Virus record (IMG/VR): IMGVR_UViG_3300009431_000002
Location: 32,001 to 96,000 of that record
DNA length: 64,000 nucleotides
Origin: a virus
Lineage: Duplodnaviria > Caudoviricetes
Reading direction: 5' to 3' (one strand)
The notes beneath the pieces are model-generated. The model was not told the origin of the DNA. It searched no databases and worked only from the letters and a program-made list of their open reading frames with translations. Of this stretch, positions 9,049-50,351 are shown in pieces; the stretch's first letter is position 1; the number at the start of each line of letters is the position of its first letter. A program made the translations under genes and the position numbers.

Positions 9049-9732
9049 CTATGCTGTCAGCATCGCGTAGATGCGCTTCTCCAGTTCAGCGCCACCGGAC
9101 ACGTCCCGAAGGATGCGGTGGAGCGGGTACACCAGCTGCCCCCTGCTGATCCGGGCCTTGTGGGCACCCTGCAGCAGCACGGCCGTCTGGTAGCGGATGT
9201 CGTCCTGGGCGAACCGGGCGACGAGGTCGGCCGAGTGCTCGGCCACACGAAAGTAGTGGGCCATGGCCCGTGCGACGTTCCTGGTGGTCGCCCTGAAGTA
9301 GATCTGGCCGGTCAGGAACGCCGCGTTGATGAAGTTGTGGCAGTGCGGGCACATCGCCGCGCCGTCGTGGACGTACTGCGGCGCGATGAACTTGCCGCAA
9401 CCGCCACCGCCACCGGGGCGGCCGACCTCGAAGTTGTCGCGCTCCGAGCCGCTGTCGGCCTCACGGCACAGGTACAGCATCTCGTCCCCGCCGCCGTGGA
9501 GCTTGCTGCCACTGAGCCAGAAGGTCAGCACACCCTTGTTGGGGCCCTGCAGGGTTCGGTTGGTCCCGAAGTTGACCTGCACCTTGTACTTGGCGATGAC
9601 GCGGCTGGCCAGCTCCTGCTTCTTCATGTCCTGCAGCAGCGCCAGCCCGCGGGCGAGGCCCTGCGGCGTCGTGCCGCGCATCATCTCCTCGGCGGAGACG
9701 AGGTTCTCGAATCGCTCGTTCGTCATGCTCAC
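9049..9732 (-). CDS. hypothetical protein with Cys (zinc) motifs
   Basis: LYLC...GCGKFI...CPHC. Confidence 0.75.
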   Translation of the reverse strand: MSMTNERFENLVSAEEMMRGTTPQGLARGLALLQDMKKQELASRVIAKYKVQVNFGTNRTLQGPNKGVLTFWLSGSKLHGGGDEMLYLCREADSGSERDNFEVGRPGGGGGCGKFIAPQYVHDGAAMCPHCHNFINAAFLTGQIYFRATTRNVARAMAHYFRVAEHSADLVARFAQDDIRYQTAVLLQGAHKARISRGQLVYPLHRILRDVSGGAELEKRIYAMLTA

Positions 9733-11947: not shown

Positions 11948-12488
11948 AGCGTCCTCCAACCGTCATCTTGAGGGCCACCTGGGTCTCGGAGGGGCCCGCC
12001 CCGGCGCGCTTGGCACCGAAGACGATGACGACATCAGGCGGAAGCATCCGCGCCTCCACGACGCGGGCGTTGCAGATCATCCAGTCGTCCCCTGTGAGCC
12101 ACGCCTCCGCGCCCAACCAGCGCCGCAGCGCGTCCTTGTCGTGGCACAGAACGTGTGTGGGGACGAACTTGCCCGTGCCCACCAACATGAACAGCGAGAA
12201 CATCTGCGACCGCGGCTCCCTCGCCAGCTCGCCTGGGGCCGGAGCCCACTCGGCGAGGACCACGCGGTTGATCATGTCCTCCAACGTCAGCTCGGCCAAC
12301 AACGGGTCGTCCGGTGAGTCGACCTTGTCCGCCGGCGCAATCCGCTCGACGTAGATCGGCTCCCCGACGTTGAGAGCGATCATCTCGACATCGCCCGGCA
12401 TGGCGAGGATGCGGGCTACCGCGGCCGCAATCTCGTCGACCGTGGCCGGGCACGGATGGTGCTCAGTAACGCGTACCTTCCCTGGCAC
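11817..12488 (-). CDS. hypothetical protein
   Basis: GGAGG RBS; coding-like except the overlapping tail. Confidence 0.7.
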   Translation of the reverse strand: MPGKVRVTEHHPCPATVDEIAAAVARILAMPGDVEMIALNVGEPIYVERIAPADKVDSPDDPLLAELTLEDMINRVVLAEWAPAPGELAREPRSQMFSLFMLVGTGKFVPTHVLCHDKDALRRWLGAEAWLTGDDWMICNARVVEARMLPPDVVIVFGAKRAGAGPSETQVALKMTVGGRYVEPAEDRGPVDDSWGDPEEPAPVSRGEGGAPTDEPPAWFGPG

Positions 12489-12663
12489 TGTCTTCCTCCT
12501 CCTTCAGCGCGACCAGGTAGTCGCGGAGGATCTGGCTCAACGTGTTGGACTTGCGACGGGCGTAGGCGAGGGCCCACTGATGTAGGTCCTTCGGCAGCTT
12601 GATGTTGAGGCGGCTGGTCTCGCCGTCCCACTGGCCGCGCTTTCGGATGGGGATCTCAGGCAT
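12463..12663 (-). CDS. ribbon-helix-helix (CopG/Arc-like) DNA-binding protein
   Basis: SRLNIKLPKDLHQWALAYARRKSNTLSQILRDYL: alternating beta strand plus two helices. Confidence 0.75.
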   Translation of the reverse strand: MPEIPIRKRGQWDGETSRLNIKLPKDLHQWALAYARRKSNTLSQILRDYLVALKEEEDSAREGTRY

Positions 12664-12674
12664 GGCAGGCTCCG

Positions 12675-12703
12675 ATGGTACACACGCTGTACTTACCTGT
12701 CAA
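12675..12703 (-). promoter_or_regulatory. sigma70-like promoter TTGACA-17-TACCAT
   Basis: + strand TGTCAA at 12698-12703 and ATGGTA at 12675-12680. Confidence 0.75.
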
Positions 12704-13995
12704 GGCGGTCCTGCGAGCGAGTACCCCAACGCCTCCACGACGTCGGGATCGGCCGCGTCGCGCATCGCCTTGAGCAGCGGCTGGCTGTACCGACGCATGT
12801 ACTCCCCCTCGAGGTAGTACGCTCGCCGGGTGAAGGTCTTGTCTTCCAGCCCGTCGTCGCGGGAGAAGTGCTCCAACATCGGCGCAAGGCACCTGTCCGG
12901 CAGACGGACCACGCCGGGCACTGCTTCGCGCCCGAAGAGCGCCGCGACCCGCCGGAGCTCGACGCCCGGGTTGCGCAGGAGATCCTCGTAGCGCACGACC
13001 GCGGCGCGCTTGCCCTCGAAGAAGTCGAGCCAGGCACGGTGCAGCTTGTTCCAGCGCCCCATCCACTTCGTGACCGCTTCGGGCGTCACCGAGACCCGAC
13101 GCTTCGTGAGGCGTTCGGCCCATTCGGCGAAGCTGATGCACCAGGCGTAGGGGTTCTTCACGCTCAAGATGAAGCCGAGGTCGCCGCGGTCGTGGGCCGC
13201 CTTCACGTTGGTCTGCTCGTACTGCGAGGTGAACCCACGCGCGACGAGCGGCGACCAATCCCAATCGAGCTCCGCCGGCGCGTGGTGCTTCCCGCCGAGC
13301 GGGTTGGAGAGGACGCGGGCGTGGACGTACTCCTCGAGGAGCAGCTTGAGGAGGTTCGTGCCGGACCGCTCGATGCCGTACTGCTTGACGTAGAGCTTGC
13401 GTCCGCGGGGCTGGCTGCAGTTCGGGCCCGTGATGACCCGCCGGACGTCGGCGATCTCGGGACCAGTCGGCGGCTGCACCCGCCACCAATCTGTTCGCCA
13501 CCGACCGTTCGTGGTCTGCCCACCATCTGTTGCGAAGCGGCCGACGAGGTCCGCGCCGAAGTCGTAGTACCGCCGCTCAGCGTTGTCCAGCGCGATGACG
13601 CCGCCGCTGCGCACGGCGAGGAGTGCTGCCGCGAGGCAGCGGACGCGACGACGGCCATCCACGAGTGCGAAGTCAGCGCCCTGCAGGCCGACTGCGTCCA
13701 CGCCGGCCATCGGGTAGGCTGTCCGGTCGCCCCACACCGGCACGTGCTGCAGGCGGACCTGCTGGGGCAGCCTGGGGCGAAGGTCCTTGACGGCGGGAGC
13801 ATGGTGTTCGACCGACGACCACCCCTTCGTCCGGCGGGCGAACCACAGGGTCGACTCGCCGGAGCCCCACTCCAGGCCAACCCAGTTGCCCGTGTCCCAG
13901 GACTCGAAGAGGTCGATGAACTCGCGGGTCAGCCACGGCTCTCCGGGGCCACCGGTCAGCGCTTTGTACCTGTGCTTCGGGTTGATCCACGTCAT
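12700..13995 (-). CDS. class I SAM methyltransferase fused to a sulfotransferase
   Basis: LEWGSGESTLWF, SVEH, ALVDG.RR; YGIERSGTNLL (5'PSB), VKNPYAWCIS (3'PB), VVRYEDL. Confidence 0.8.
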   Translation of the reverse strand: MTWINPKHRYKALTGGPGEPWLTREFIDLFESWDTGNWVGLEWGSGESTLWFARRTKGWSSVEHHAPAVKDLRPRLPQQVRLQHVPVWGDRTAYPMAGVDAVGLQGADFALVDGRRRVRCLAAALLAVRSGGVIALDNAERRYYDFGADLVGRFATDGGQTTNGRWRTDWWRVQPPTGPEIADVRRVITGPNCSQPRGRKLYVKQYGIERSGTNLLKLLLEEYVHARVLSNPLGGKHHAPAELDWDWSPLVARGFTSQYEQTNVKAAHDRGDLGFILSVKNPYAWCISFAEWAERLTKRRVSVTPEAVTKWMGRWNKLHRAWLDFFEGKRAAVVRYEDLLRNPGVELRRVAALFGREAVPGVVRLPDRCLAPMLEHFSRDDGLEDKTFTRRAYYLEGEYMRRYSQPLLKAMRDAADPDVVEALGYSLAGPP

Positions 13996-14675
13996 CGGGG
14001 CACCCGGCAGTCGTACCCAAGGGCCCGCGCGAGCTGCGGCAGGGCCGCATCGCTCCGAAGGCGGCGACGCAGGGCCACGACATCCGCTGCAGAGCAAGTC
14101 TTCCACGGCTCGAGACGGCTCGGGTCGAGCGGCCGGTGGCCTCCCATCGCCTTGGTCGCCCACGGGTCGTCTGTCCTGAAGTGCCGGTGGCAGCCTGCGA
14201 AGGTGCGGCAGTCCTGGAGGTGGAAGGCGCGACGCAGCTGCCGCTGGATCGTCGCCGGGTCGGTGACCAGGGTCTCGAAGCGGACGACCTGAACATTCGC
14301 GTGCTGCCGAAACCGCAAGAGCATCCGCGCGGCGTAGGCCCACCGGCTCGGCGGGACGTAGAACTTGCCGCCGCTGGCGGGGTGGCGAGACAGCAGCACG
14401 GCCTTGGGGTCCCGGACCATGAACACGACGCCCACGCCAGCGGCCAGGGCCTCCCTGACGTCCTCCACCGACTCCGCGAGGTCCACCCAGTGCTTGGAGA
14501 CCATCCGCGGGTACTTCAGCGCCACGCACGACGACGGTGAGATGTGAACGTCCGGGACACACCGCCACTCGTGCTCCCCGGGTACGTGGGCGATGTCCCG
14601 GTACCCGGCGCCGATCAAGAAGTGCATCAGGGTGTTGCCCGAGCGAGCGCACCCGGTGGTGACGATCCGCCTCAC
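13992..14675 (-). CDS. sulfotransferase family protein
   Basis: TGCARSGNTLM, MVRDPKAVLLS, VRFETLVTDP. Confidence 0.8.
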   Translation of the reverse strand: MRRIVTTGCARSGNTLMHFLIGAGYRDIAHVPGEHEWRCVPDVHISPSSCVALKYPRMVSKHWVDLAESVEDVREALAAGVGVVFMVRDPKAVLLSRHPASGGKFYVPPSRWAYAARMLLRFRQHANVQVVRFETLVTDPATIQRQLRRAFHLQDCRTFAGCHRHFRTDDPWATKAMGGHRPLDPSRLEPWKTCSAADVVALRRRLRSDAALPQLARALGYDCRVPR

Positions 14676-15986
14676 CTACTTCTTCCCGAAGAACTCCTTC
14701 ACCACCTTCGGCCGCATGGCGACAGCGACCTTGCGGTTCGACAGGCACATCGAGCAGAAAGGTTGCTTCAGCCGGTCCTGCTGCAACAGGCGGTTGAGGA
14801 AGTGGGGCCGCAGGGTGTCGTGGAACTGCGGGAAGTTGTCGTAGTCGCGGCCGAGGTGCAGCGCCGTGTTCCGGCCGTTGGGGCAGATGTCGACCTTCCC
14901 CTCGCGCAGCGTGAACTTCGCGCAGTTGCAGTGCGCCGGCAACGACTTCGGCACCGGGACGACGGGGCCGTTCACCCGCTGCTCCCGTTCCGAGATGACG
15001 ATGTGCTTGGCCTCGCCGTACTTGCCGGCCTTCGGGAAGGCCTTGCGCACCGCGGCCACCTGGGCCTTGTTGCCGGAGTACTCCGAGATCCGAACGAGGT
15101 CGGCCATCTCCAGCACGGGCGCGTACTTCCTGGTGGTCTTCTCGGTGAAGGGCAGCACCGCGGTGAGGATGTCCACCTGGTCCGTCAGGCCGGACTCCTT
15201 GAGCCGCTTGACGCCGGCGGCGATGTACTTCCACATCAGAGGCTCGCCGCCGCAGAGCGTGATGACGCGGTAGTGGTAGCCCGACTGCTTGCTGTAGTCG
15301 ATGAAGCGGTCGACCTCGGCCAACGACATGTGGTGGTTGGGAGAGCCCTCCATCCACTCGCGGACGATGCAGGGCACGCACCCACCCGAGCAGGTCGTGG
15401 TGGCCATCAGCGTCATCTTCAGCACGGGTTTCCTGGCGAACCAGGTGCTCCCCGGGCCACGCTGGAGCTCCAGGCCCTGCAGGGCGCAGAACTCGTCCAC
15501 GGCGTGGATCACGCCTGGGAACCAGCCCGCGTAGTCGTGGCCCGCGAGCCACCCACCGGGCTTGACCTTGCCGTACCATGCCCGGAGGTCGGCCGAGACG
15601 TCCTTGTAGCCGTGGCCGGCGTCCACGAAGACCATGTCGAGGGTCCGGTCTCCGATCATCTCCGCCGCGTCCACCGACGGCATGTGCATCGGCCGCACGT
15701 CGCACTTGGCGTCGCCGCGCGTGATCTCCAGGAAGGTCGCCTTGGCGTCGCGGTGCTCCTGGACCGACTCGTCCCAGGAGTCCACGGCGTAGAGCACCGC
15801 GGGAGGAACGGCCTCGAGCATGTAGCTCGTGCTCAGCCCAGAATGGACCCCCACCTCGGCCATCGTCCGCACGCGCTTCTCCCGGACGAACTTGGCGTAC
15901 CACTCCCCCTCCTTGGGGAAGAACCACCCCATGACCTCGCGTCCGCGGAACTGCCTGCTGCCTCGACTCTTGAAGTTGATCGCCAC
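14676..15986 (-). CDS. Methyltransf_24-type O-methyltransferase fused to a radical SAM domain
   Basis: AEVGVHSG, AVDSW, VFVDAGH, KPGGWLAGHDY; CSGGCVPC (CX3CX2C), CGGEP, C-terminal Cys cluster. Confidence 0.85.
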   Translation of the reverse strand: MAINFKSRGSRQFRGREVMGWFFPKEGEWYAKFVREKRVRTMAEVGVHSGLSTSYMLEAVPPAVLYAVDSWDESVQEHRDAKATFLEITRGDAKCDVRPMHMPSVDAAEMIGDRTLDMVFVDAGHGYKDVSADLRAWYGKVKPGGWLAGHDYAGWFPGVIHAVDEFCALQGLELQRGPGSTWFARKPVLKMTLMATTTCSGGCVPCIVREWMEGSPNHHMSLAEVDRFIDYSKQSGYHYRVITLCGGEPLMWKYIAAGVKRLKESGLTDQVDILTAVLPFTEKTTRKYAPVLEMADLVRISEYSGNKAQVAAVRKAFPKAGKYGEAKHIVISEREQRVNGPVVPVPKSLPAHCNCAKFTLREGKVDICPNGRNTALHLGRDYDNFPQFHDTLRPHFLNRLLQQDRLKQPFCSMCLSNRKVAVAMRPKVVKEFFGKK

Positions 15987-15995
15987 GTCGTCCTC

Positions 15996-17825
15996 CTACC
16001 AGGCGTCCTTGCTGGAGACCCTGGGTCCAGTCACGCGATACTGGCACAGGAAGCCGTCGTGCGCACGAGCCTTCCGGTGCTTCTGCCTGTACCGCTTGTA
16101 GAAGTCGTAGTCGTGGCCCTTCTTCCAGACACCCTGTCCGGTGGACCACTCCTCGTCGTACATCGTCTCCAGCGCCCACGCAGTGCGGAACGCCACGCAG
16201 CCGCTGTGCGGGGCGAACCGGCGCCCCTCCTTGCCGTCCCATCGATGCTCCCCGACGCGCTCCCCGCCGTGGTCGATCAGCCGTGCGCTGCCCCAGAACA
16301 AGCCCAGCTGCGGGTCCTTCTCGAACGCCTCGACGGTGATCTTCAGCCGGTCGGGCAAGGAGATGTCGTCGTCGTCGTTGTTGGCGATGAGCGGGGCTCG
16401 CGCGTGCAACAGCACCTGGTTGCGCTTCCACGACAGGTTGCTGTTGGGGTAGTGGAACCACACGATCCGCGGGTCCCTGAAGGACTCCAGCACCTTCCGC
16501 ACCTTCGGGTCTGTGCTGTCGTCGATGATGATGAGCTCCCAGTCGCGCATCGACTGCGCCAGGATCCCCTCGATGGCCTGGAACAGGAACCGCGGCCGGT
16601 TGTGCGAGACCATCATCACCGTGACCTTCGGCGCGTTGGTCGCCGTCCGCAGGCCGTGCCGCCGTCGCCAGATATTGCCGAGGCGCATTAGGTCCTCCTT
16701 CTCCCAGTTCTGGTACATGTCCAAGCTCACCTCGGGGGCGTCGTCGGCGGCGAGCTCCTCGGCGAGCGCCCTTCGCCACTCGTCGAGGTCGTGCGGAGGC
16801 ACGAACACTCCGTGGTGCGGAAGGGCTTCGCGGATCCCAGGTAGGTCTGAGGCGATGACCCTCGCGCCCCCGATGGCCGCCTCCACAGCGGCCATGCCGT
16901 AGGTCTCGGTCTCCGAGGGCATGAGGTGAACCCGGCTGCGCGAGAAGAAGCGCCGCAGGTCCCGGGCCGGCCCCACCATCTGGACGTTCGGCAACACCTC
17001 CAGGCCCTCGACCTGGGTGCCGTAGCCGCCGCGGGCGATGAGGAAGTGCTGGTCGTTGAACTCCCGGGCCAGTTCCCGGACGATGTTGCCGCCCTTCGAC
17101 CCGGAGGGGTTGATCATGGTCACGCTGTCCCGCTTCGGCGCCAGTCCCCCGAGGATGCGCGACGTGTCGATGACTGGACGGACGATCACGCTGTCCTTCG
17201 GCTTCCCGCACTCCTCCCACAGCGAGTACGAGTTGAAGATCCATCCTGCGGGCTTGTACCCCTGTGAAAGCGGATGGTCGTAGCTCCACTTCACGTGGCA
17301 GTACAGGTAGACCGGCACGGTGCCGAGCTCGAGGAACGGATGCGCAGCCTCGAACTGCGCCACGACCACGTCCGGCCGCATCCGCGCGAGCAGGGGCTTG
17401 ACGTAGTGCCGTTCCCATCTTGGGAACCCGGAGTGCAGGAGCACCCCCTCCATCGACTCCACTCCGCCAGGGCCCTCGCCCTCGACTGCGACGACATCGA
17501 AGCCGTCCCGGACCAGGGCCTGGGCCAGCCCCATCATCGCGGTCTCGCCCCCGGCGTAGACGTAGGGGGGCAGCCTCGGGGACACGCACAGGACCAGTGG
17601 CTTGGTCTTGGGGGGCGCACCCGTCAGCAGGAGCATCGCGGCGCCCCGCCGTCCAGGCTTGACGTTCAGCGGGCGCCCTTCGATCTCGCCCATCCTCGTC
17701 ACGACGTTGCCTGCGAAGCGCGTGTAGCGCTCGGCGGGTACAGGGCTCGTCGGGGCCAGGACTGCGACGACGTCGCTGAACGTCTCGTAGATCCTATCCG
17801 AGATCAGGTGGATGTCGTCAGCCAC
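15996..17825 (-). CDS. GT4 plus GT2 fusion glycosyltransferase
   Basis: PSETETYGMAAVEA (EX7E), ASDLPGIRE; VSHNRP.FL.QAI, LIIIDDS, NNDDDD. Confidence 0.85.
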   Translation of the reverse strand: MADDIHLISDRIYETFSDVVAVLAPTSPVPAERYTRFAGNVVTRMGEIEGRPLNVKPGRRGAAMLLLTGAPPKTKPLVLCVSPRLPPYVYAGGETAMMGLAQALVRDGFDVVAVEGEGPGGVESMEGVLLHSGFPRWERHYVKPLLARMRPDVVVAQFEAAHPFLELGTVPVYLYCHVKWSYDHPLSQGYKPAGWIFNSYSLWEECGKPKDSVIVRPVIDTSRILGGLAPKRDSVTMINPSGSKGGNIVRELAREFNDQHFLIARGGYGTQVEGLEVLPNVQMVGPARDLRRFFSRSRVHLMPSETETYGMAAVEAAIGGARVIASDLPGIREALPHHGVFVPPHDLDEWRRALAEELAADDAPEVSLDMYQNWEKEDLMRLGNIWRRRHGLRTATNAPKVTVMMVSHNRPRFLFQAIEGILAQSMRDWELIIIDDSTDPKVRKVLESFRDPRIVWFHYPNSNLSWKRNQVLLHARAPLIANNDDDDISLPDRLKITVEAFEKDPQLGLFWGSARLIDHGGERVGEHRWDGKEGRRFAPHSGCVAFRTAWALETMYDEEWSTGQGVWKKGHDYDFYKRYRQKHRKARAHDGFLCQYRVTGPRVSSKDAW

Positions 17826-18558
17826 GGTCCAGCTCCAGCACCTTCCGGACGCCCCACGGCCGCGGGGCCACGCCGTCCCGTTTGATGGTCTCGAACATCT
17901 CGTTGTTGCGGTGGTGGTCCCCGGCCGCGGCCGCGGACGGATGGTCTTGGTGGATGATGAGCGGGTCGTCGATCCAGCTGATGTCGCCGACCTGGTCGGC
18001 CTTCCAGACGGCGTGGTCGTCTTCGGCGCCCCAGCCGACGAAGCGTTCGTCGACGCCGGAGATCGCAGCCCACAGGGCACGCTCCGCGCCCATCGACATA
18101 CCGTTGGCACACCGAGACCAGGGGTTGGGCTGCGACGACGCGAAGTAGGCGCCCCAGTCCGACGAGAGGTCCTCACCCTCGGCGGCCTCGCGGCCGCGCC
18201 GGTGCTCGCACATGAGCATCAGATTCGGCCGGAGCCGGGCCTCGTAGGTCTCGACGAAGTGGGGGGCTGCGACGGCGTCGACGTCCAGCACGACGACGTG
18301 GCGACTCCGGCTCACGCGGATGCCGCAGTTGATGCTCGCGGCCCGACTGAACCGCGGGTCCCGCCACTCCACACGGAGGAACGTGAAACCGAAGGACCTG
18401 GTGATGCCGCGGATGTTGTCGAGGTGGTCTGTCGCGCTGGACAGGTCCGAGACGACGACCTCCTCAGGAGGCACCGTCTGGCGCGCCAAGGCGTTGAGGC
18501 AGTTCCACAACCGGGCGCCGCCACGGTCGCGCTGCGGGATGACGACCGTGGTGCCCAT
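17818..18558 (-). CDS. GT2 / GT7C-like glycosyltransferase
   Basis: VVIPQRDR, VVSDLSS, FSRAASIN.G, LDVD, DERFVGWGAEDD. Confidence 0.88.
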   Translation of the reverse strand: MGTTVVIPQRDRGGARLWNCLNALARQTVPPEEVVVSDLSSATDHLDNIRGITRSFGFTFLRVEWRDPRFSRAASINCGIRVSRSRHVVVLDVDAVAAPHFVETYEARLRPNLMLMCEHRRGREAAEGEDLSSDWGAYFASSQPNPWSRCANGMSMGAERALWAAISGVDERFVGWGAEDDHAVWKADQVGDISWIDDPLIIHQDHPSAAAAGDHHRNNEMFETIKRDGVAPRPWGVRKVLELDRG

Positions 18559-18840
18559 CTACTCCGGCGGGACCTCCTGCTCCTGGACGTTCTGGAGCTT
18601 CGTCAGCCAGTCGTCCAGTCCCTCGAACATCGGGAAGCGCTCCCCGAGCCAGCAGGCGATGAACACGTGCGCCTCGCGCATGTCGCGCTCCGACGTCGTC
18701 AGCTCGCCGGCGAAGCGGTCGTTCAGCGCCTGGGCCAGCCGGATGTGCAGGTCACCCTGCACCGCGATGAAGGAGGGGAGGAGATCCCACCGGATCTCGA
18801 CGTTCCCCTCCTTGCGGCTACTGGGCCTGACGAGCAGCAC
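18559..18840 (-). CDS. hypothetical protein
   Basis: ORF in the gene array. Confidence 0.6.
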   Translation of the reverse strand: MLLVRPSSRKEGNVEIRWDLLPSFIAVQGDLHIRLAQALNDRFAGELTTSERDMREAHVFIACWLGERFPMFEGLDDWLTKLQNVQEQEVPPE

Positions 18841-19162
18841 TGGGCCAGTCCACCAGCTTGAAGTCGAGCTCGAAGCCCGGCACGCGGTACGCCATCTCCT
18901 GGATGCGGTCCACGAGCGGCACCGGAATGGTCTGGTCCTCGCGGTGGTACAGCTCCAGCTCCAGGTGCTGCGTGACCTCGCCGGTCTCCGGGTCCAGGTC
19001 GCAGGTGAACCGGCAGCGCTTCACCAGCTGCAGCGCTTGGCCGTCGACGGTGATGACCGTCTGGTCCGGCGTGGCGCCGACGAGGATCTGCACCGGGTGG
19101 TTCTGGGAGGCGGTGGGGCGGCGGCCTGGCCGCTGTACTCCTTGGTCGATTCGACGTACCAT
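18818..19162 (-). CDS. hypothetical protein
   Basis: GAGGAG RBS. Confidence 0.65.
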   Translation of the reverse strand: MVRRIDQGVQRPGRRPTASQNHPVQILVGATPDQTVITVDGQALQLVKRCRFTCDLDPETGEVTQHLELELYHREDQTIPVPLVDRIQEMAYRVPGFELDFKLVDWPSAARQAQ

Positions 19163-19172
19163 CGTGGTCTCC

Positions 19173-19529
19173 TCACATCACCGCGAGGTCGACGTCGTCG
19201 CCGACCTTCATCGTGATGTCGTTCATGTGCAGCAGGCAGTGCTCGACGTCCTCCACCTTCTTCAGGGGGATGGCGTCCTTGAGGAAGCGGCGGAAGGTGA
19301 TCCGGTCGCCCGGCTCCACCGGCGGCGTCAGGGTCACGCCCTTGTCGGTGAGCTGGCCGGGGCCGACGCGGACCACGCGGCCGACGCCCTCCATGACGTG
19401 CTCGCGGCCGACGTCCTGGTTGGGCCGGTACAGCCCGCCGCGGGTCTTCTCGCCGCGCGGCTCCACGGAGACGAGCACGTAGGGGCCCATCGGGCGGATG
19501 ACGTCGGGGTGGATGTCAGAGCTGTCCAT
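19173..19529 (-). CDS. groES: co-chaperonin GroES (Cpn10)
   Basis: IRPMGPYVLV, EKTRGGLY.P, GRVVRVGPG, VEPGDRITF, LLHMNDI. Confidence 0.85.
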   Translation of the reverse strand: MDSSDIHPDVIRPMGPYVLVSVEPRGEKTRGGLYRPNQDVGREHVMEGVGRVVRVGPGQLTDKGVTLTPPVEPGDRITFRRFLKDAIPLKKVEDVEHCLLHMNDITMKVGDDVDLAVM

Positions 19530-24092: not shown

Positions 24093-24367
24093 CGCGCCTC
24101 CAGGCCCGATTCCATGAAGCGACTCAGCGTGCGGCCCCACTGCGTCTCCTGCACACGCTCGTGCTCGAGGATGTCGAAGGCCAGACTCCCCAGCGTTCCG
24201 CTACGGAAGTCCGTGTTGATGTAGGTCTTGACGCGGGCGAGGTTGCGGGCCAACCGGAACCCGTCCCGCACGTCCGGCTTCGCCGGCGTCTGGTACCTGC
24301 CGACTCGAGCGGCTCTGCGGAGGGTCGGCGCGACCTTGGGGTTAGGCTGGACGGGCACGGCTGTCAC
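24089..24367 (-). CDS. hypothetical protein
   Basis: GAGGA before GTG. Confidence 0.6.
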   Translation of the reverse strand: MTAVPVQPNPKVAPTLRRAARVGRYQTPAKPDVRDGFRLARNLARVKTYINTDFRSGTLGSLAFDILEHERVQETQWGRTLSRFMESGLEAR

Positions 24368-25412
24368 TCCTCAGCGGCGCCAGTTCCTTGTAGGCGTCCG
24401 CGTGGTCGTTCACCTTGTTGAGTCCGAACTGGGCCTCGCCGCGAGCGTACAGACGCTGGCGACGCGCCGGATCCGGCGCGTAGCCCCGCAGAGCGGGGAT
24501 GACCTGCGTGGGGTCGGTGCTGGCCACGTAGATGCCATCGGGTCCGAGGGTCTCGCGGGACGACCCAGAGTCGAGCGCGATGACCTCCTTCTTCGCCCCC
24601 ATCGCCAGCACGGCCTCGGTGCGGACGCTCTCGCTGCGGTCCCAGCTCAGTTCGAGCACGGCGTCCGCGGCGTTGATGAGCATCTCCTCCGGCTTGCTCT
24701 CGACCACGGTGACCCTGGGCCCAGCGGGCTGCGCCAGCGAGATGACCTGCTCCGCGGCCTCCTCGGCCGGGTCCGCGATGATGAGCTGGTAGCCCTCGTC
24801 CGACGAGGCGAGGTTGTTGATCACCGGCGTCAGGACCTCGATCTCCTCGACCGTCGGTTCCATGACGACCAGCGTCGTCTCCGCCGGCTGTACGCCGAGG
24901 TCGGCGCGGGCTTGAGCAGCCGGCCGCTGCTGCACCTTCTGGATGGGCGGCCGCAGGACCTTGATGCGTGGCTCCTCGATGCCGGCCGCCATGAGGGCGT
25001 TCTTCCCCCGGAAGTCCGGGACGACCCACAGCGAGATGCGCGAGTAGGCCAGTCGCTTGATGACGCCGCGCCGGACTGGACGGGCCCCGTAGCGGTGGGC
25101 CAGCATCCGCTGGCGCGTACCGTACAGGCCCATCACGCCGAGGCGCGACAGCTCCATGGAGTGGAAGATCACCAGGTCCGGGTTGATGAGCCGCGTCCGC
25201 TGCAGGATGTCGGCTCGCTCCAGCTGGAGACGCCTGTGGACCTCGATGGTGCGGTCGAGCACCCCGATGGCCCGCTTCCCAGCTTGACGCTGCTGGACAC
25301 GGTCGCCGAACCTCTCCAGGAAGATGTGCTCGTTGACCGCGTCGTTCTCGATCAGCGTCCGGACGAAACGGATGTGGGGGCCCCGCCGTGGGCCGATGTG
25401 AAGGAAACGCAT
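24342..25412 (-). CDS. GT-B fold (GT4-like) protein, possibly degenerate
   Basis: MRFLHIG, PDLVIFHS, INAADAVLELS, AMGAKKEVIA.DSGSSRE; second Glu of EX7E missing. Confidence 0.65.
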   Translation of the reverse strand: MRFLHIGPRRGPHIRFVRTLIENDAVNEHIFLERFGDRVQQRQAGKRAIGVLDRTIEVHRRLQLERADILQRTRLINPDLVIFHSMELSRLGVMGLYGTRQRMLAHRYGARPVRRGVIKRLAYSRISLWVVPDFRGKNALMAAGIEEPRIKVLRPPIQKVQQRPAAQARADLGVQPAETTLVVMEPTVEEIEVLTPVINNLASSDEGYQLIIADPAEEAAEQVISLAQPAGPRVTVVESKPEEMLINAADAVLELSWDRSESVRTEAVLAMGAKKEVIALDSGSSRETLGPDGIYVASTDPTQVIPALRGYAPDPARRQRLYARGEAQFGLNKVNDHADAYKELAPLRSDSRARPA

Positions 25413-25902: not shown

Positions 25903-25931
25903 ATGGTACGCACGCGCAATCCAACTGTCAA
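25903..25931 (-). promoter_or_regulatory. sigma70-like promoter TTGACA-17-TACCAT
   Basis: + strand TGTCAA at 25926-25931 and ATGGTA at 25903-25908. Confidence 0.8.
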
Positions 25932-48025: not shown

Positions 48026-49021
48026 CTACACCTCCACTTCGGGGGTTTCTGGAACACCCACCGCTTCATCATCCCGCCGCACTGAGGGCATCGGCGCGTC
48101 ACCGGCGCGCCTTTCCGGCATCACCCCCGTGGGAGCGGGCGCTTCGTCCGTCGTTTCTTGCTTCGCACTGGCTCTCCTTGCGTTGCGGGCGGCCAACCTG
48201 TCGCTGAACGATGTCGGCAGCCTCGTCGGCGCCACCGCAGGGCCTGCGGGACGCCTCGGGGTCACTGTAGCAGGGTTCTGGACGTCCACGTCGGCCAAAC
48301 GAGCCCGTTCAGCCCTCTGTAGGCGTGCCCGACGGGCCCTGTCGGCCGTCGTGAGGCCGCGGAAGGCACTCCCACGGCCGTAGATGGCCCCCAAGGTGTC
48401 CACAGGGACGCCTTTGAAGCCTCGACCGAGCATCTCGGCGACCAGACGCTGGTCCTCACCACGTCCAGGGGTCCACCAGATGCCCGACTTGGCCCCCACG
48501 ACGCCTGCGCGGTGCATCAACTCGTCCGGGATGACCGTCCCGAGCTGCCAGGGGATGCCCGGACCGAACTTGGGCTCGGCCACGAGCCGCTCGTGGACCG
48601 AGTTCTCCCAGTCCGGGCCCTGGTTGCGCACGAACATGGTCCTGGACCAGCAGAAGTCGATGTCTGGGCGGGCGTCCATCACCTTCACCCGGTGCTCGAG
48701 GGCCCAGGGGGTCATCACGTCGTCGTCATCGAGGTAGGCGATGTACTTGCCCTTGGCGATCTTGACGCCCTCGTTGCGCTGCAGGCCCCCTGAGATGCCC
48801 AGGGCCACTGGGAGCCGCAGAACACGCAGCCTGGGGTCGTACTTGCGCAGGATCTCGAGGATGTCGGCCGTGTGGTCGGTCGTGGCGTCGTCGACGACAA
48901 TCACCTCGATGTCCTGCAGCGTCTGGCCGAGGCACGAGAGCACGGCGCCCGCCATGATGCGGTCGCGTGACTCGCCCGGCGGGCCTCCAGTGGGGATGAT
49001 GACGCTGGCTACGACGTTCAA
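48026..49021 (-). CDS. GT2 glycosyltransferase with a basic/disordered tail
   Basis: SVIIPT, QTLQDIEVIVVDDATTD, RNEGVKIAKGKYIAYLDDDD; TTG start after GGAG. Confidence 0.88.
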   Translation of the reverse strand: MNVVASVIIPTGGPPGESRDRIMAGAVLSCLGQTLQDIEVIVVDDATTDHTADILEILRKYDPRLRVLRLPVALGISGGLQRNEGVKIAKGKYIAYLDDDDVMTPWALEHRVKVMDARPDIDFCWSRTMFVRNQGPDWENSVHERLVAEPKFGPGIPWQLGTVIPDELMHRAGVVGAKSGIWWTPGRGEDQRLVAEMLGRGFKGVPVDTLGAIYGRGSAFRGLTTADRARRARLQRAERARLADVDVQNPATVTPRRPAGPAVAPTRLPTSFSDRLAARNARRASAKQETTDEAPAPTGVMPERRAGDAPMPSVRRDDEAVGVPETPEVEV

Positions 49022-49653
49022 CGAGCTCTCCTGGTGCGCGCCGGCTGCCGGCGGCCGCGCTGGGGTGGGCCAGCTTGGCCGGCCCGGCGGAAGACCAGGA
49101 GGTTGTCGCAGAAGTAGTGCACCACGCCCTTGGAGCGCCAGTCGCGGACCCACCGCTGCATCACGGTGGTCTGCAGCTGGAACCCTCGACGCTCGAAGTG
49201 CCCGATCCAGTGGTCCGCGGGCATGAGATTGACGTGGTGGTGGCCGGGCTGTCCAGGAGGGGCGGCCGAGAAGACCAGCCAGTCCTTGGCGTGCCGCGCG
49301 ATGGTGTGGCAGGCGATGTCCGCCGTGTGGGCGGGCAGGTGCTCCAAGACCTCCATGCAGATGACCACGTCGACCTGCAGCCGGAGGTCCAGAGCCCTGG
49401 TGAGGTCGTGGATGTGGACCGGAGTGCCGGGATCCGCGAAGTCGAGGGCATGCGACGAGCCGTCGACGCCTGCGGCATCGCACCTGCGCTTGCGCAAGGC
49501 GTTGATGACACCGCAGGGGCCGCAGCCGATGTCCAGGGCGACCTTCGGCTTGATGTGCCGGGCGATGGTGTCGGCGATGACCACGGAGGAGTGCCGCTCC
49601 GTGGCGGCCACGGCCTCCATCCACTCCTTCGTGTACAGGTCGTTGAGGCTCAT
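49018..49653 (-). CDS. class I SAM methyltransferase (glycan-associated type)
   Basis: ALDIGCG, GVDGS, DVVICMEVLEHLP, FSAAPPGQPGHHHVN. Confidence 0.85.
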   Translation of the reverse strand: MSLNDLYTKEWMEAVAATERHSSVVIADTIARHIKPKVALDIGCGPCGVINALRKRRCDAAGVDGSSHALDFADPGTPVHIHDLTRALDLRLQVDVVICMEVLEHLPAHTADIACHTIARHAKDWLVFSAAPPGQPGHHHVNLMPADHWIGHFERRGFQLQTTVMQRWVRDWRSKGVVHYFCDNLLVFRRAGQAGPPQRGRRQPARTRRAR

Positions 49654-50351
49654 GCCTTCCTCGTCGGTGCGGGTGGGCAGCGCAGCCGCGGCTTCACCGG
49701 CGCGGGCTGGATCGGTGGCGGCGACGGCGGCCCGTCCCACCAAGTCCTGGTGTAGTCGACCTCCGGCGTGTGGATCCAGACGTTGGGCACGGGCTGGTCC
49801 ACCTCGTGGTCGAAGTGGGCGTGGACTGCGTCCCTCACGTCCGGCCAGTGGTAGTCGTGGCCGGCGATCACACGCGTCTTGGGCGACCAGTCTCGGATGT
49901 CCTGGTCCACAGCGGCGTTGGAGTGGTCCCCGTCGATGAAGACCATGTCGGCGAGCACAGGCACGTGCTTCACGGCCTCGTGGGAGGTCATCTTCAACAT
50001 CACGACGGGCACCTCGAACGCCGCAGCCAGCTGCTGGAAGGTGCGGTAAGCCCACGCGTCCTCCCAGGGGTCGATGGCGTACACGCACTCCAGGCACGGG
50101 GCGTCGAGGACGTAGCTGAGGCTGAGACCGGCGTGGACGCCGATCTCGACGAGCGTGCGGACCTGGTGCTCCAGGATCGTCCGGCGGTACCACTCCCCTT
50201 GCTGGTCGTCGAACCAGCCGGAGGTCTGTACGCCTCGGACGGTCCGGCTCAGCGCAGGTCCCAGCGGAGCGAGGGCACGGCGTCCACCAGCTCCACGTCC
50301 TCGAAGTCCAGGCCGCAGCCCTCGTAGTCGATGGTCACGCCCGGGAACCAC
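49650..50351 (-). CDS. Methyltransf_24-type methyltransferase (start uncertain)
   Basis: LVEIGVHAG, AIDPW, DMVFIDGDHS, IAGHDY. Confidence 0.8.
   Translation of the reverse strand: MVPGRDHRLRGLRPGLRGRGAGGRRALAPLGPALSRTVRGVQTSGWFDDQQGEWYRRTILEHQVRTLVEIGVHAGLSLSYVLDAPCLECVYAIDPWEDAWAYRTFQQLAAAFEVPVVMLKMTSHEAVKHVPVLADMVFIDGDHSNAAVDQDIRDWSPKTRVIAGHDYHWPDVRDAVHAHFDHEVDQPVPNVWIHTPEVDYTRTWWDGPPSPPPIQPAPVKPRLRCPPAPTRKA

What the first reader, a model, noticed from the sequence alone, without database searches (positions are those of the whole stretch)
12700..18558. Phage-encoded glycosylation, methylation, sulfation and radical-SAM tailoring pathway
Seen: five tightly coupled minus-strand genes encode a GT2/GT7C-like enzyme, a GT4-GT2 fusion, a methyltransferase-radical SAM fusion, a sulfotransferase and a methyltransferase-sulfotransferase fusion. 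That is about eight catalytic domains, and they sit among late/structural-type genes (GroES, tail chaperone). Known: some phages glycosylate virion proteins, and others glycosylate DNA bases or host surface polysaccharides. PAPS-dependent sulfotransferases plus radical SAM tailoring are typical of bacterial glycolipid and natural-product clusters, not of characterised phage glycosylation. Inference: this phage builds a sulfated, O-methylated oligosaccharide on its capsid or tail, on its DNA, or on the host surface.
Basis: partly seen in the sequence, partly recalled or inferred. Interest (0 to 1): 0.85.

Follow-up and report, generated by a model that had tools for sequence, protein, structure and literature searches.

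The report
Phage sugar-building and sugar-sulfating gene cassette
An uncultured 202-kb marine phage carries five linked genes with eight enzyme domains that most likely build a short sugar chain and then methylate, sulfate and oxidise it; related phages keep the two sugar-adding genes at the same place but swap the decorating genes, and what the sugar is attached to is still unknown.

Summary
Window 12700-18558 (minus strand) carries five translationally coupled genes with eight recognisable catalytic domains:
- a GT2 enzyme;
- a GT4-GT2 fusion;
- a Methyltransf_24-radical SAM fusion;
- a sulfotransferase;
- a methyltransferase-like-sulfotransferase fusion.

Catalytic motifs are intact in every domain.

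The window lies in a complete 201.9-kb, 67% GC marine phage genome with no close cultured relative. The cassette is not a recently captured bacterial locus. Three related metagenomic phage contigs carry GroES, a small ORF, the GT2 gene and the GT4-GT2 gene between the same flanks. Downstream of that core they carry a different set of tailoring genes. Two complete but more distant relatives lack the cassette.

The radical SAM domain folds with high confidence as a twitch enzyme, closest to the sugar/cyclitol dehydrogenases SpeY and BtrN. Its family is enriched in viruses and lies beside, or fused to, glycosyltransferases in unrelated phage contigs.

The five proteins have no membrane segments. 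The cassette holds no flippase, polymerase or priming transferase. The genome search found no gene for sugar-nucleotide or PAPS supply. The glycan is therefore probably made in the cytoplasm from host precursors.

The acceptor is unresolved. I favour virion proteins, then host envelope glycan; DNA is unlikely. The 'structural gene' context was not confirmed beyond GroES. This scan has noted similar phage cassettes in other genomes.

The parts
17818..18558 (-). Gene E: 246-aa GT2 (GT-A) glycosyltransferase with a GT7C-like WGxEDD motif. It is the first gene of the conserved core.
   Evidence: Pfam Glycos_transf_2 E 4e-9, Glyco_transf_7C weak. Motifs D92-V-D94 and G175-WGAEDD. Best solved relative is the A1 domain of chondroitin polymerase K4CP, E 5e-9. 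71% identical to the orthologue in the TARA contig L030, the best-conserved protein of that 20-kb neighbourhood.
15996..17825 (-). Gene D: 609-aa fusion of a conserved N-terminal region of about 90 aa, a GT4 (GT-B) domain and a GT2 (GT-A) domain. It is the second gene of the conserved core.
   Evidence: Pfam Glyco_trans_1_4 E 1.3e-13 and Glycos_transf_2 E 2e-17. E307-x7-E315 and D484-D487 are invariant in the four orthologues. Orthologues P0003-P0005 are 56-60% identical over the full length. The GT2 half matches the K4CP A2 domain best, profile E 5.8e-21.
14676..15986 (-). Gene C: 436-aa fusion of a Methyltransf_24 class I methyltransferase (residues about 20-185) and a twitch-type radical SAM domain (residues 185-436).
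   Evidence: Pfam. Invariant across 46 family members: C199/C203/C206 and the auxiliary set C353, C368, C411, C414; C355 is nearly invariant. AF2 model pLDDT 94.2. SpeY Z 19.1 and BtrN Z 15.4, against about 13 for the next tier. This fusion was found only in this genome among 1.8 billion representative proteins.
13992..14675 (-). Gene B: 227-aa stand-alone sulfotransferase. The start must be the GTG at 14675.
   Evidence: Pfam Sulfotransfer_3 26.2 bits against a cut-off of 27. The ESM Atlas structure matches sulfotransferase clusters at TM 0.76, and all ten best feature hits belong to that family. The P-loop G8-CARSGNT lies upstream of the M17 start used in the Atlas record, so the longer reading frame is the functional one.
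12700..13995 (-). Gene A: 431-aa fusion of a Methyltransf_24-like Rossmann domain (1 to about 180) and a sulfotransferase domain (about 197-431).
   Evidence: Pfam Sulfotransfer_3 33.5 bits, above the cut-off. Atlas structure: N-terminal half TM 0.81 to Methyltransf_24 clusters, C-terminal half TM 0.76 to sulfotransferase clusters. Weak sequence hits to the methyltransferase-like structure 3cvo and to a PF13578 protein.
19173..19529 (-). GroES/Cpn10 homologue. It is a conserved upstream neighbour of the cassette in all four phages that carry it.
   Evidence: Pfam Cpn10 E 5e-13. The same order, Cpn10 then a small ORF then GT2 then GT4-GT2, appears.
18559..19162 (-). Two small ORFs of unknown function between GroES and gene E: 18818-19162 (or 19093) and 18559-18840. 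The first has an orthologue in L030.
   Evidence: No Pfam or PHROGs match.
12675..12703 (-). Promoter-like site TTGACA-N17-TACCAT. It overlaps the stop codon of gene A and lies 11 nt before the ATG of the next gene. It marks the probable end of the cassette's transcription unit.
   Evidence: It shares an extended GCGTG-N-GTACCAT box with the site at 25903-25931.
25903..25931 (-). Promoter-like site of the same type, 6 nt before the ATG of a 79-aa ORF. It is the candidate start of a 13.2-kb co-directional unit that ends with the cassette.
   Evidence: No terminator-like site on the minus strand between the two sites.
12463..12663 (-). 66-aa ribbon-helix-helix-like protein directly downstream. 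It is the conserved right-hand flank of the variable region.
   Evidence: Sequence pattern. 49% identical orthologue at the same position in L030.
24342..25412 (-). 356-aa GT1/GT4-like protein in the same co-directional block.
   Evidence: Pfam Glyco_trans_1_4, 21.7 bits, below the cut-off. 38% identical orthologue in L030.
48026..50084 (-). Second, separate glycan-type cluster beside the lysis genes: a GT2 gene (48026-49021), a class I methyltransferase gene (49018-49653) and a Methyltransf_24 gene (49650-50084 or longer).
   Evidence: Pfam. The GT2 is 63% identical to a gene in the related contig G001.

Best explanation
PROPOSED FUNCTION. The five genes are a phage-owned, cytoplasmic cassette that assembles and tailors a glycan.

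1. Core. The GT2 enzyme (E) and the GT4-GT2 fusion (D) carry three sugar-transferring domains. They build an oligosaccharide of at least three sugars on an acceptor that the phage lineage itself specifies, using host NDP-sugars.
2. Tailoring. A lineage-specific module then decorates that glycan. Two unrelated class I methyltransferase domains O-methylate it with SAM. Two distantly related sulfotransferases sulfate it with host PAPS. The twitch radical SAM domain abstracts a hydrogen from a sugar carbon. Like BtrN and SpeY, it would oxidise a secondary alcohol to a ketone, or else epimerise it.
3. Acceptor. I think virion protein is the most likely acceptor. The decoration would then be an exposed coat whose chemistry changes between related phages by swapping tailoring genes.

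STATUS OF EACH STEP.
- Shown: gene structure, domain identities and motifs, the fold of the radical SAM domain, conservation of the core and variability of the tailoring module across related phages, and the absence of membrane or export components from the cassette.
- Inferred: the donor substrates, the order of steps and the radical SAM chemistry.
- Unproven: the acceptor.

CONFIDENCE. About 0.85 that this is a functional glycan assembly and tailoring cassette. About 0.45 that the acceptor is virion protein. The figure given below is for the whole statement.
For: DOMAINS AND MOTIFS.

ONE EXPRESSION BLOCK. The genes overlap or abut. They lie inside a 13-kb co-directional run bounded by two matching promoter-like sites.

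PHAGE-OWNED, NOT RECENTLY CAPTURED.
- GC3 of 0.88-0.95 matches the rest of the genome.
- Orthologues of E (71% identity) and D (56-60%) sit between the same flanking genes in three metagenomic phage contigs.
- E and D are better conserved than nearly all of their neighbours, which are 27-51% identical (one, at 24089-24358, is 65%).
- No D-like fusion turned up in the scan of bacterial species representatives.

SWAPPABLE TAILORING MODULE. After the core, the relatives carry different sets:
- P0003 contig: GT2, an unknown gene, sulfotransferase, B12-radical SAM, two methyltransferases, GT1.
- L030: GT2, GT2, an unknown gene, small radical SAM, methyltransferase.
- P0005 contig: GT2, an unknown gene, sulfotransferase, then the contig ends.

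This pattern is typical of exposed glycans under diversifying selection.

CYTOPLASMIC AND SELF-CONTAINED.
- None of the five proteins has a hydrophobic segment that could span a membrane.
- The cassette has no flippase, polymerase, ABC exporter or polyprenyl-phosphate priming transferase.
- The genome has no APS kinase and no SDR sugar epimerase/dehydratase.

RADICAL SAM DOMAIN.
- AF2 pLDDT 94.2. SpeY scores Z 19.1 and BtrN Z 15.4, clearly above the next tier at about 13.
- The auxiliary-cluster cysteines are invariant across the family.
- In unrelated IMG/VR phage contigs of 29-64% GC the family lies next to GT2, GT4 and LicD/cytidylyltransferase genes. In L044 and L045 it is fused to a GT7C-type domain.

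PRECEDENT. Cluster O mycobacteriophages use an O-methyltransferase plus three tandem glycosyltransferases to modify capsid and tail-tube proteins (Freeman et al. 2023, as summarised in PMC11600133).
Against: - No direct evidence links the cassette to any virion protein.
- The neighbours are unannotatable. The nearest recognisable modules are DNA metabolism (ligase, Dam, C5-methylase), not structure.
- The capsid gene is more than 65 kb away.
- Soluble GT2 and GT4 enzymes without membrane segments also work on polyprenyl-linked intermediates at the inner face of the membrane. The absence of export genes therefore does not exclude action on host glycans.
- The two complete, more distant relatives do without the cassette, so it is not essential to the virion plan.
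- B scores just under Pfam's cut-off.
- No RNA or protein data exist for this phage.
- The GTs show no specific homology to the characterised mycobacteriophage enzymes.
Confidence: 0.45

Rival explanations
1. Host-envelope remodelling. During infection the enzymes act on the host's own lipid-linked or nascent surface polysaccharide (O-antigen, capsule or EPS). They extend, methylate and sulfate it, and the host machinery exports it. The benefit would be exclusion of competing phages, or less loss of progeny on cell debris.
For: - GT2 and GT4 enzymes of this type are the standard peripheral enzymes of O-antigen and EPS pathways. The NCBIfam sub-threshold matches are to EpsD/EpsE, WcaA, TuaG and PglI.
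- The literature reads GT-rich hypervariable regions of marine myophages this way (PMC7029224).
- Variable tailoring genes would track variable host serotypes.
- The cassette needs the host for all precursors.
Against: - E and D are among the best-conserved proteins of the neighbourhood across phages whose other genes have diverged to 27-51% identity. That fits a conserved phage acceptor better than a variable host glycan.
- No D-like fusion was found in bacterial genomes.
- No integrase or lysogeny context was seen, and classical seroconversion is a property of temperate phages.
- The cassette shares a unit with GroES, a capsid-folding co-chaperonin in T4-type phages (established knowledge).
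Confidence: 0.27
2. DNA hypermodification. The glycosyltransferases add sugars to a hydroxylated or hydroxymethylated base in phage DNA, and the other enzymes tailor that sugar, which protects the genome from host nucleases.
For: - Phage GT-A and GT-B enzymes do build di- and trisaccharides on 5hmC (10.1101/2023.12.21.572611).
- The genome encodes a 604-aa C5-cytosine methyltransferase about 9 kb away, at 27894-29708.
- The wider neighbourhood is rich in DNA-metabolism genes.
Against: - No thymidylate-synthase-type hydroxymethylase and no Tet/JBP dioxygenase match (although the control for that search was silent).
- Known DNA-glycosylation pathways are tightly clustered with such enzymes.
- Sulfation of a polyanion has no precedent or obvious use.
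- In other phages the radical SAM family travels with LicD/cytidylyltransferase genes, which points to teichoic-acid- or LPS-style chemistry rather than DNA chemistry.
Confidence: 0.08
3. Small-molecule or peptide product. The cassette glycosylates and tailors a metabolite, a lipid, or a ribosomal peptide encoded by one of the adjacent small ORFs. The product would be a secreted or intracellular effector.
For: - The closest solved relatives of the radical SAM domain, SpeY and BtrN, work in aminoglycoside antibiotic pathways.
- Small ORFs of unknown function flank the cassette.
- GT2 enzymes include peptide glycosyltransferases (established knowledge).
Against: - No scaffold-building enzyme (cyclitol synthase, aminotransferase, PKS/NRPS) is present in the block.
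- The adjacent small ORFs are not Ser/Thr/Cys-rich.
- Three sugar-transferring domains kept as a conserved core fit an oligosaccharide on a macromolecule better.
Confidence: 0.1
4. Passenger locus. This would be a bacterial polysaccharide fragment picked up by the phage, with no role in its life cycle.
For: It is absent from the two complete, more distant relatives G004 and G005. In G004 the flanking genes lie 3.4 kb apart, against 11.7 kb here.
Against: - All reading frames are intact and all catalytic motifs preserved.
- Codon-position GC matches that of the phage.
- The core is conserved at 56-71% identity at the same locus in three other phage contigs.
- No bacterial source locus was found.
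Confidence: 0.03

Closest known systems
Mycobacteriophage virion glycosylation cassettes (Che8-type and cluster O Corndog-type; Freeman et al. 2023, Cell Host Microbe, read here only through PMC11600133)
   Same: - Phage-encoded tandem glycosyltransferases together with an O-methyltransferase.
- Soluble enzymes that use host sugar nucleotides.
- No export machinery.
- An accessory character within a phage group.
   Different: - No specific sequence homology: tblastn with D found no Mycobacterium phage at E <= 1e-5.
- This cassette adds two sulfotransferases and a twitch radical SAM domain, and it fuses domains (GT4-GT2, methyltransferase-radical SAM, methyltransferase-sulfotransferase).
- The setting is a marine, probably Gram-negative-infecting jumbo phage.
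- The acceptor here is untested.
GT-rich hypervariable regions ('host recognition cluster', 'LPS genes') of marine pelagimyophages and cyanomyophages (PMC7029224)
   Same: - Marine large phages.
- Non-syntenic sets of glycosyltransferases and sugar-tailoring genes at a fixed genomic position.
- Function untested.
   Different: - Those clusters lie inside the structural region next to tail fibres, are dominated by GT8, and often include sugar-nucleotide synthesis genes.
- This cassette is far from the structural genes and has no precursor genes.
- It has a strictly conserved two-gene core next to GroES.
Twitch radical SAM dehydrogenases BtrN (butirosin) and SpeY (spectinomycin)
   Same: - Overall fold over the whole 250-residue domain (Z 19.1 and 15.4).
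- A CX3CX2C cluster plus a C-terminal auxiliary Cys set, invariant in the family.
- The size, about 240-250 aa, is unusually small for radical SAM enzymes.
   Different: - Only 13-17% sequence identity.
- Below every NCBIfam cut-off.
- Fused here to a methyltransferase, and in other phages to a GT7C-type domain.
- The substrate is presumably a glycan-bound sugar rather than a free aminocyclitol.
- Dehydrogenase chemistry is inferred, not shown.
E. coli K4 chondroitin polymerase K4CP (PDB 2z86/2z87) and other bacterial glycosaminoglycan synthases
   Same: - E matches the K4CP A1 (GalNAc-transferase) domain best, including the DxD and WGGED-type motifs.
- The GT2 half of D matches the A2 (GlcA-transferase) domain best, profile E 5.8e-21, ahead of SpsA (1.1e-13) and heparosan synthase (8.3e-11).
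   Different: - The two domains are on separate proteins.
- One is fused to a GT4 domain that K4CP lacks.
- Identity was not computed and the aligned blocks look only modestly similar.
- Nothing shows polymerase activity or these sugar specificities. This is a lead, not a membership claim.
Phage-encoded Sulfotransfer_3 'auxiliary metabolic genes' (OM43 phage MVGs, Synechococcus phage S-SRM01; PMC10580990)
   Same: Same Pfam family, marine phages, function stated as unclear.
   Different: - Those are isolated genes.
- Here two sulfotransferases are translationally coupled to glycosyltransferases, which gives them a substrate context.
- No BLAST-level similarity to any of 50,697 GenBank phage records.

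Membership tests
GT2 (GT-A fold, inverting glycosyltransferases): gene E and the C-terminal half of D | Pfam PF00535 match above the gathering score | tested here: met
   E scores 37.1 bits and D 64.1 bits, against a cut-off of 23.3.
GT2 (GT-A fold, inverting glycosyltransferases): gene E and the C-terminal half of D | DxD metal/nucleotide-sugar binding motif | tested here: met
   E has D92-V-D94. D has D484-D487, invariant in four orthologues.
GT4 (GT-B fold, retaining): N-terminal half of D | Glycos_transf_1 / Glyco_trans_1_4 match above the cut-off, and the EX7E motif | tested here: met
   51.9 bits against 27, and 41.4 against 26.4. E307 and E315 are invariant.
Radical SAM superfamily: C-terminal half of C | CX3CX2C cluster-binding motif within a partial TIM barrel | tested here: met
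   C199/C203/C206 are invariant in 46 sequences. PF04055 scores 28.4 bits against a cut-off of 29.5, just under. Fer4_12 scores 23.2 against 22. The AF2 model, pLDDT 94, aligns to many radical SAM structures.
Twitch-domain radical SAM dehydrogenases (BtrN/SpeY type) | C-terminal auxiliary [4Fe-4S] cluster ligated by four Cys in a short beta-hairpin/helix extension | tested here: met
   C353, C368, C411 and C414 are invariant and C355 nearly so. The full-length structural match to SpeY is Z 19.1 over 233 residues; to BtrN it is Z 15.4.
Twitch-domain radical SAM dehydrogenases (BtrN/SpeY type) | Oxidation of a secondary alcohol of a sugar or cyclitol to a ketone | not testable with these tools
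   Needs an anaerobic enzyme assay. Epimerase or other chemistry is not excluded, since EpeE, BlsE and anSME also match at Z 12-13.
PAPS-dependent sulfotransferases (Pfam Sulfotransfer_3/Sulfotransfer_1): B and the C-terminal half of A | Family HMM match above the gathering score | tested here: inconclusive
   A scores 33.5 bits against 27, so it is met. B scores 26.2 bits against 27, just under. Both have Atlas structural matches of TM 0.76 to sulfotransferase clusters.
PAPS-dependent sulfotransferases (Pfam Sulfotransfer_3/Sulfotransfer_1): B and the C-terminal half of A | 5'-phosphosulfate-binding P-loop and 3'-phosphate-binding R/K-(D/N)-P...S motif | tested here: met
   B has G8-CARSGNT and R88-DPKAVLLS96. 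A has R210-SGTN and K280-NPYAWCIS288. That these are the canonical motif forms rests on my knowledge of the family.
Class I SAM methyltransferases (Methyltransf_24): N-terminal halves of C and A | Rossmann fold with the E-x-G-x-G motif I | tested here: met
   C scores 64.2 bits against 26.3 and has E44-VGVHSG. A has no Pfam hit, but its Atlas structure matches PF13578 clusters at TM 0.81 and it has E42-WGSG. The A domain could be catalytically degenerate; that was not tested.
Mycobacteriophage-type virion glycosylation system | Glycan covalently attached to capsid or tail-tube subunits | not testable with these tools
   Needs mass spectrometry of virions.
Mycobacteriophage-type virion glycosylation system | Homology of the glycosyltransferases to the characterised Che8 or Corndog enzymes | tested here: not met
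   tblastn of D against 50,697 phage records gave no Mycobacterium phage at E <= 1e-5. The best actinophage hit was Streptomyces phage TurkishDelight, 41% over 108 aa.
Bacterial Wzx/Wzy- or ABC-transporter-dependent O-antigen/capsule loci | Polyprenyl-phosphate priming transferase together with a flippase/polymerase or ABC exporter in the locus | tested here: not met
   None of the five proteins has a membrane-spanning segment (maximum 19-residue hydropathy 1.75). No such Pfam family occurs in the cassette or in 20 neighbouring genes.
Phage DNA sugar-hypermodification gene clusters (5mYOX/ThyS-associated) | A 5-methylpyrimidine dioxygenase or thymidylate-synthase-like hydroxymethylase in the genome, usually adjacent | tested here: not met
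   PF00303 is absent, with a working control. PF12851 gave no match, but its control was silent, so that half is inconclusive. A C5-methyltransferase is present 9 kb away.

The most novel reading that the evidence does not exclude
A lineage of marine jumbo phages decorates its own virions with a sulfated, O-methylated and keto- or epi-modified oligosaccharide, possibly on a chondroitin-like GalNAc/GlcA-type backbone. The phages change that coat between close relatives by swapping tailoring genes behind a fixed two-gene glycosyltransferase core. This would be a viral counterpart of O-antigen serotype switching and, to my knowledge, the first sulfated glycoconjugate shown to be made by a virus of bacteria. 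The small virus-enriched twitch radical SAM family would then be a new class of glycan-modifying enzyme that acts after sugar transfer.
Probability: 0.25. Interest if true: 0.85.

Novelty: new variant of a known kind. Interest (0 to 1): 0.6.

Why it matters
Phage-encoded glycosylation of virions has been demonstrated only in mycobacteriophages, where it blunts antibody recognition. Large GT-rich islands in marine phages are widely annotated but untested.

This locus gives a compact and well-defined test case. It has a conserved three-domain glycosyltransferase core and a swappable tailoring module. It is small enough, at 5.9 kb and five genes, to express as a whole.

It also gives a substrate context to two orphan groups. 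One is the phage sulfotransferases, whose role the literature calls unclear. The other is a virus-enriched family of very small twitch radical SAM enzymes that repeatedly sit beside, or are fused to, glycosyltransferases.

If the product is on the virion, sulfated glycans would join the known ways in which phages alter their surface. That could affect adsorption, aggregation with marine polysaccharides and grazing. If the product is on the host, it would be a lytic-phage route to changing the cell surface. In either case the enzymes are candidates for glycan sulfation and late-stage sugar oxidation tools.

Tried and rejected
SEARCHES THAT FOUND LITTLE OR NOTHING.
- Megablast of the cassette against GenBank phages: no match.
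- tblastn of C and D against phages: only domain-level hits.
- IMG/VR scans with single proteins C and D: nothing. With the D alignment: only distant GT4 hits.
- JGI metagenome scan with the D alignment: nothing.
- Word-indexed homologue searches for C and A: self plus one or two weak methyltransferase hits, so both fusions are unique in that collection.
- Sequence search of B against the PDB: nothing.
- PHROGs and Pfam on about 25 neighbouring genes: only GroES and a weak GT1. No tail chaperone or structural protein was recovered.
- Context look-ups for the top radical SAM homologues mostly hit contigs of 1-5 kb and said little.
- The paper on 'moraphages' (PMC12619734) describes a different, T4-like lineage without an RNA polymerase. 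It is not this phage.

A WASTED JOB. Single-sequence AlphaFold of A failed (pLDDT 35). The ESM Atlas model was used instead.

READINGS CONSIDERED AND REJECTED.
- The 1629-aa ORF 12700-17589 as one giant gene. It is in the wrong frame by GC3.
- The M17 start for B. It would delete the P-loop.
- Recent duplication of the two sulfotransferases or of the two methyltransferase domains. The sulfotransferases are 27% identical over 125 aa, and the methyltransferase domains show no significant similarity.

NOT RUN. Complex prediction, because I do not claim a specific binding pair. RNA read mapping, because no run holds the stretch.

Full report
WHAT THE WINDOW IS
The window is bases 32001-96000 of a single 201,921-bp contig with 67.3% GC. 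CheckV rates it complete. It is a phage. It has a large terminase (PHROG 675, E 4e-55) and a major head protein at genome 115951-127586. It also has a muramidase endolysin with holin-like membrane proteins at window 51.0-53.4 kb.

No cultured relative exists. The best terminase identity among 50,697 GenBank phage records is about 27%. IMG/VR holds three fragmentary relatives (terminase about 72% identical) and two near-complete relatives of 183-188 kb (about 49%). The only sequencing run that shares words with the cassette is a marine metagenome. One orthologous contig is a TARA Oceans scaffold.

CHECKING THE OBSERVATION
At this GC content the raw ORF list is useless. It offers a 1629-aa ORF across most of the region. 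A GC3 frame plot and inspection of start codons resolve five minus-strand genes:
- E, 17818-18558
- D, 15996-17825
- C, 14676-15986
- B, 13992-14675
- A, 12700-13995

Their junctions are an 8-nt overlap, a 9-nt gap with a GGAGGA site, direct abutment, and an ATGA overlap.

Pfam supports GT2 (plus a weak GT7C match) in E. It supports GT4 plus GT2 in D, Methyltransf_24 plus radical SAM in C, and Sulfotransfer_3 in A. B scores just under the sulfotransferase cut-off. The ESM Atlas holds models of A and B. B and the C-terminal half of A superpose on sulfotransferase clusters at TM 0.76. The N-terminal half of A superposes on Methyltransf_24 clusters at TM 0.81.

The motifs are intact:
- DxD in both GT2 domains.
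- A WGAEDD box in E.
- E307-x7-E315 in the GT4 domain.
- E-x-G-x-G in both methyltransferase domains.
- CX3CX2C in C.
- An RSG(N/T)(T/N) P-loop and an (R/K)(D/N)P...S motif in both sulfotransferases.

The P-loop of B lies upstream of the M17 start used in the Atlas record, so the GTG at 14675 is the true start.

The context claim is only partly right. GroES is real. No tail chaperone or other structural protein could be recognised among some 25 neighbours. The structural module is more than 65 kb away.

IS IT THE PHAGE'S OWN?
Third-position GC in the five genes is 0.88-0.95, the same as in the rest of the genome.

The GT4-GT2 fusion has three full-length orthologues, 56-60% identical, all on metagenomic contigs. 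Those contigs carry the same neighbourhood:
- a Cpn10 gene, then a 112-113-aa ORF;
- a 245-247-aa GT2 gene, then the fusion;
- after a variable stretch, a 61-aa gene, a 220-aa gene and further genes.

For the one contig whose DNA I could read (L030), BLASTP shows collinear orthologues for 20 flanking genes at 27-65% identity. E is 71% identical and D 58%. The core glycosyltransferases are thus among the best-conserved proteins of the region.

In the complete but more distant relative G004, the homologues of the flanking genes at window 9049-9732 and 21417-22298 are 3.4 kb apart, against 11.7 kb here. None of the four cassette proteins searched (E, D, C, A) has a match in G004 or G005. A scan of one genome for each of 185,579 bacterial and archaeal species with the D alignment returned only GT2 domains of 25-29% identity. 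That scan is pattern-based, so it is not exhaustive.

The cassette is therefore an accessory of one sub-lineage of these phages. It is held at a fixed locus and is not a fresh bacterial capture.

THE VARIABLE HALF
Downstream of the core, the four phages differ.
- This phage: methyltransferase-radical SAM, sulfotransferase, methyltransferase-like-sulfotransferase.
- P0003 contig: GT2, a 236-aa unknown, sulfotransferase, a B12-binding radical SAM enzyme, two methyltransferases, a GT1.
- L030: two GT2 genes, a 250-aa unknown, a 244-aa radical SAM enzyme (32% identical to the radical SAM half of C), a methyltransferase.
- JGI contig: GT2, unknown, sulfotransferase, then the contig ends.

The two sulfotransferases here are only 27% identical over 125 residues. 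The two methyltransferase domains show no significant similarity. These are four independent tailoring activities, not recent duplicates. A conserved initiating or extending core with exchangeable decorating enzymes is how surface glycan loci usually evolve.

THE RADICAL SAM DOMAIN
An exhaustive HMMER search places residues 185-436 of C in a family of stand-alone proteins of about 240 aa. The fusion to a methyltransferase is unique to this genome. No NCBIfam model reaches its cut-off.

In a 46-sequence alignment the CX3CX2C motif is invariant, as are four C-terminal cysteines (C353, C368, C411, C414). C355 is nearly invariant. That implies a second iron-sulfur cluster.

With this alignment AlphaFold gives pLDDT 94.2. 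Foldseek and VIA-align both rank the twitch dehydrogenases first: SpeY (E 1e-10, Z 19.1, 233 residues aligned) and BtrN (Z 15.4). ChlB, SuiB, anSME, BlsE, MoaA and EpeE follow at Z 12-13. The nearest ESM Atlas structural cluster is 89% viral.

In unrelated IMG/VR contigs of 29-64% GC, the family sits among GT2, GT7C-type, GT1/GT4, LicD-cytidylyltransferase, SPASM radical SAM and Methyltransf_24 genes. In L044 and L045 it is fused to a GT7C-type domain. In L038 the block lies 3.4 kb from the portal gene.

I therefore read it as a sugar-modifying twitch enzyme. Oxidation of a secondary alcohol is the likeliest chemistry by analogy. That is an inference.

WHAT THE SUGARS MIGHT BE
Among solved structures, E matches the A1 domain of the E. 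coli K4 chondroitin polymerase best, including the DxD and WGGED-type boxes (E 5e-9). The GT2 half of D matches the A2 domain of the same enzyme best (profile E 5.8e-21). SpsA and heparosan synthase come next.

Taken with the two sulfotransferases, this suggests a glycosaminoglycan-like backbone. However, the similarity is only domain-level, and the set of solved GT2 structures is small. I treat it as a lead.

WHERE THE GLYCAN GOES
None of the five proteins has a segment hydrophobic enough to span a membrane. The cassette and its neighbours hold no priming transferase, flippase, polymerase or exporter. The genome has no APS kinase and no SDR sugar epimerase/dehydratase. Synthesis is therefore cytoplasmic and draws on host PAPS, SAM and NDP-sugars.

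Two promoter-like sites of the same unusual form, TTGACA-N17-TACCAT with a shared GCGTG-N-GTACCAT box, lie on the minus strand. One ends 6 nt before the ATG of the ORF at 25657-25896. The other overlaps the stop codon of A. No terminator-like site lies between them. The cassette is thus probably the distal end of a 13.2-kb unit that also holds a GT1-like gene and GroES.

Virion proteins as acceptor (about 0.45). Reasons:
- The core enzymes are conserved more strongly than their surroundings, as expected if the acceptor is a conserved phage protein.
- The unit contains a capsid-folding co-chaperonin.
- The only demonstrated function of a GT-plus-methyltransferase cassette in a phage is virion glycosylation (Freeman et al. 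2023, via PMC11600133).

Host envelope glycan (about 0.27). Soluble GT2 and GT4 enzymes normally work on lipid-linked intermediates. This is also how comparable clusters in marine myophages have been read (PMC7029224).

DNA (about 0.08). The genome has a C5-cytosine methylase 9 kb away. It has no thymidylate-synthase-type hydroxymethylase and no detectable Tet/JBP dioxygenase (control silent). Known DNA-glycosylation pathways keep such enzymes next to their GTs.

A small-molecule or peptide product (about 0.1) and a passenger locus (about 0.03) complete the list.

COMPARISON AND NOVELTY
The kind is known: phage-encoded glycan cassettes. So are phage sulfotransferase genes of unclear role (PMC10580990, PMC8290583). 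This scan's own earlier notes list similar GT, radical SAM, sulfotransferase and methyltransferase blocks in at least 21 other genomes. Those are unchecked leads, not evidence.

What is new here:
- The particular architecture: three domain fusions, two of them unique in the collections searched.
- The demonstration that a conserved GT2 plus GT4-GT2 core sits beside GroES at a fixed locus with a swappable tailoring module.
- The assignment of a small, virus-enriched radical SAM family to the twitch (BtrN/SpeY-like) class, together with its recurrent physical linkage to glycosyltransferases.

I rate it a new variant of a known kind, with interest 0.6. The decisive work is experimental and is set out under next steps.

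Noticed in passing
window 48026-50351 (minus strand): A second glycan-type cluster lies at the distal end of the lysis block (muramidase at 52472-53359, three membrane proteins at 51051-52377). It holds a GT2 gene (85 bits), a class I methyltransferase gene and a Methyltransf_24 gene. The GT2 is 63% identical to a gene in the related fragment G001; the two methyltransferases have no match there.
   Followed up: partly
window 25903-25931 and 12675-12703 (minus strand); genome 127613-127642 (plus strand): There are three promoter-like sites with the rare -10 hexamer TACCAT. The two in the window share an extended GCGTG-N-GTACCAT box and sit 6 and 11 nt from an ATG, which suggests leaderless or near-leaderless transcripts. 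Only about one such site is expected by chance in 19.5 kb.
   Followed up: partly
L044:7329-8672 and L045:7374-8723: In two unrelated high-GC IMG/VR contigs the same small twitch radical SAM domain is fused to an N-terminal GT7C-type glycosyltransferase-like domain (447-449 aa). A LicD-cytidylyltransferase fusion follows it. This suggests a widespread, unnamed phage module for glycan or phospho-alcohol decoration.
   Followed up: partly
window 13992-14675: The ESM Atlas record for B starts at M17. That start removes the PAPS-binding P-loop (residues 8-15), so automatic gene calls may systematically truncate this protein.
   Followed up: yes
window 12700-17589: A 1629-aa open frame spans four real genes in another frame. 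This is a typical high-GC artefact that could mislead automatic annotation.
   Followed up: yes
window 27894-29708 (plus strand): A 604-aa protein with a C5-cytosine DNA methyltransferase domain (PF00145) carries a large N-terminal PHROG 32684 region of unknown function. It is divergently placed about 2 kb from the head of the cassette's transcription unit.
   Followed up: no
window 12463-12663 (minus strand): A 66-aa ribbon-helix-helix-like protein lies immediately after the cassette, behind its own promoter-like site. It is conserved at the same position in L030 (49%). It may be a regulator.
   Followed up: no
window 9049-9732 and 21417-22298, against G004 133491-134102 and 129625-130122: The region between these two conserved genes is 11.7 kb here and 3.4 kb in the 188-kb relative. 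This is an accessory slot in the phage group.
   Followed up: partly
Pfam found no family in the 277 residues that lie inside the window. The Dam methylase at 834-1700 is confirmed (E 1.4e-45).
   Followed up: partly
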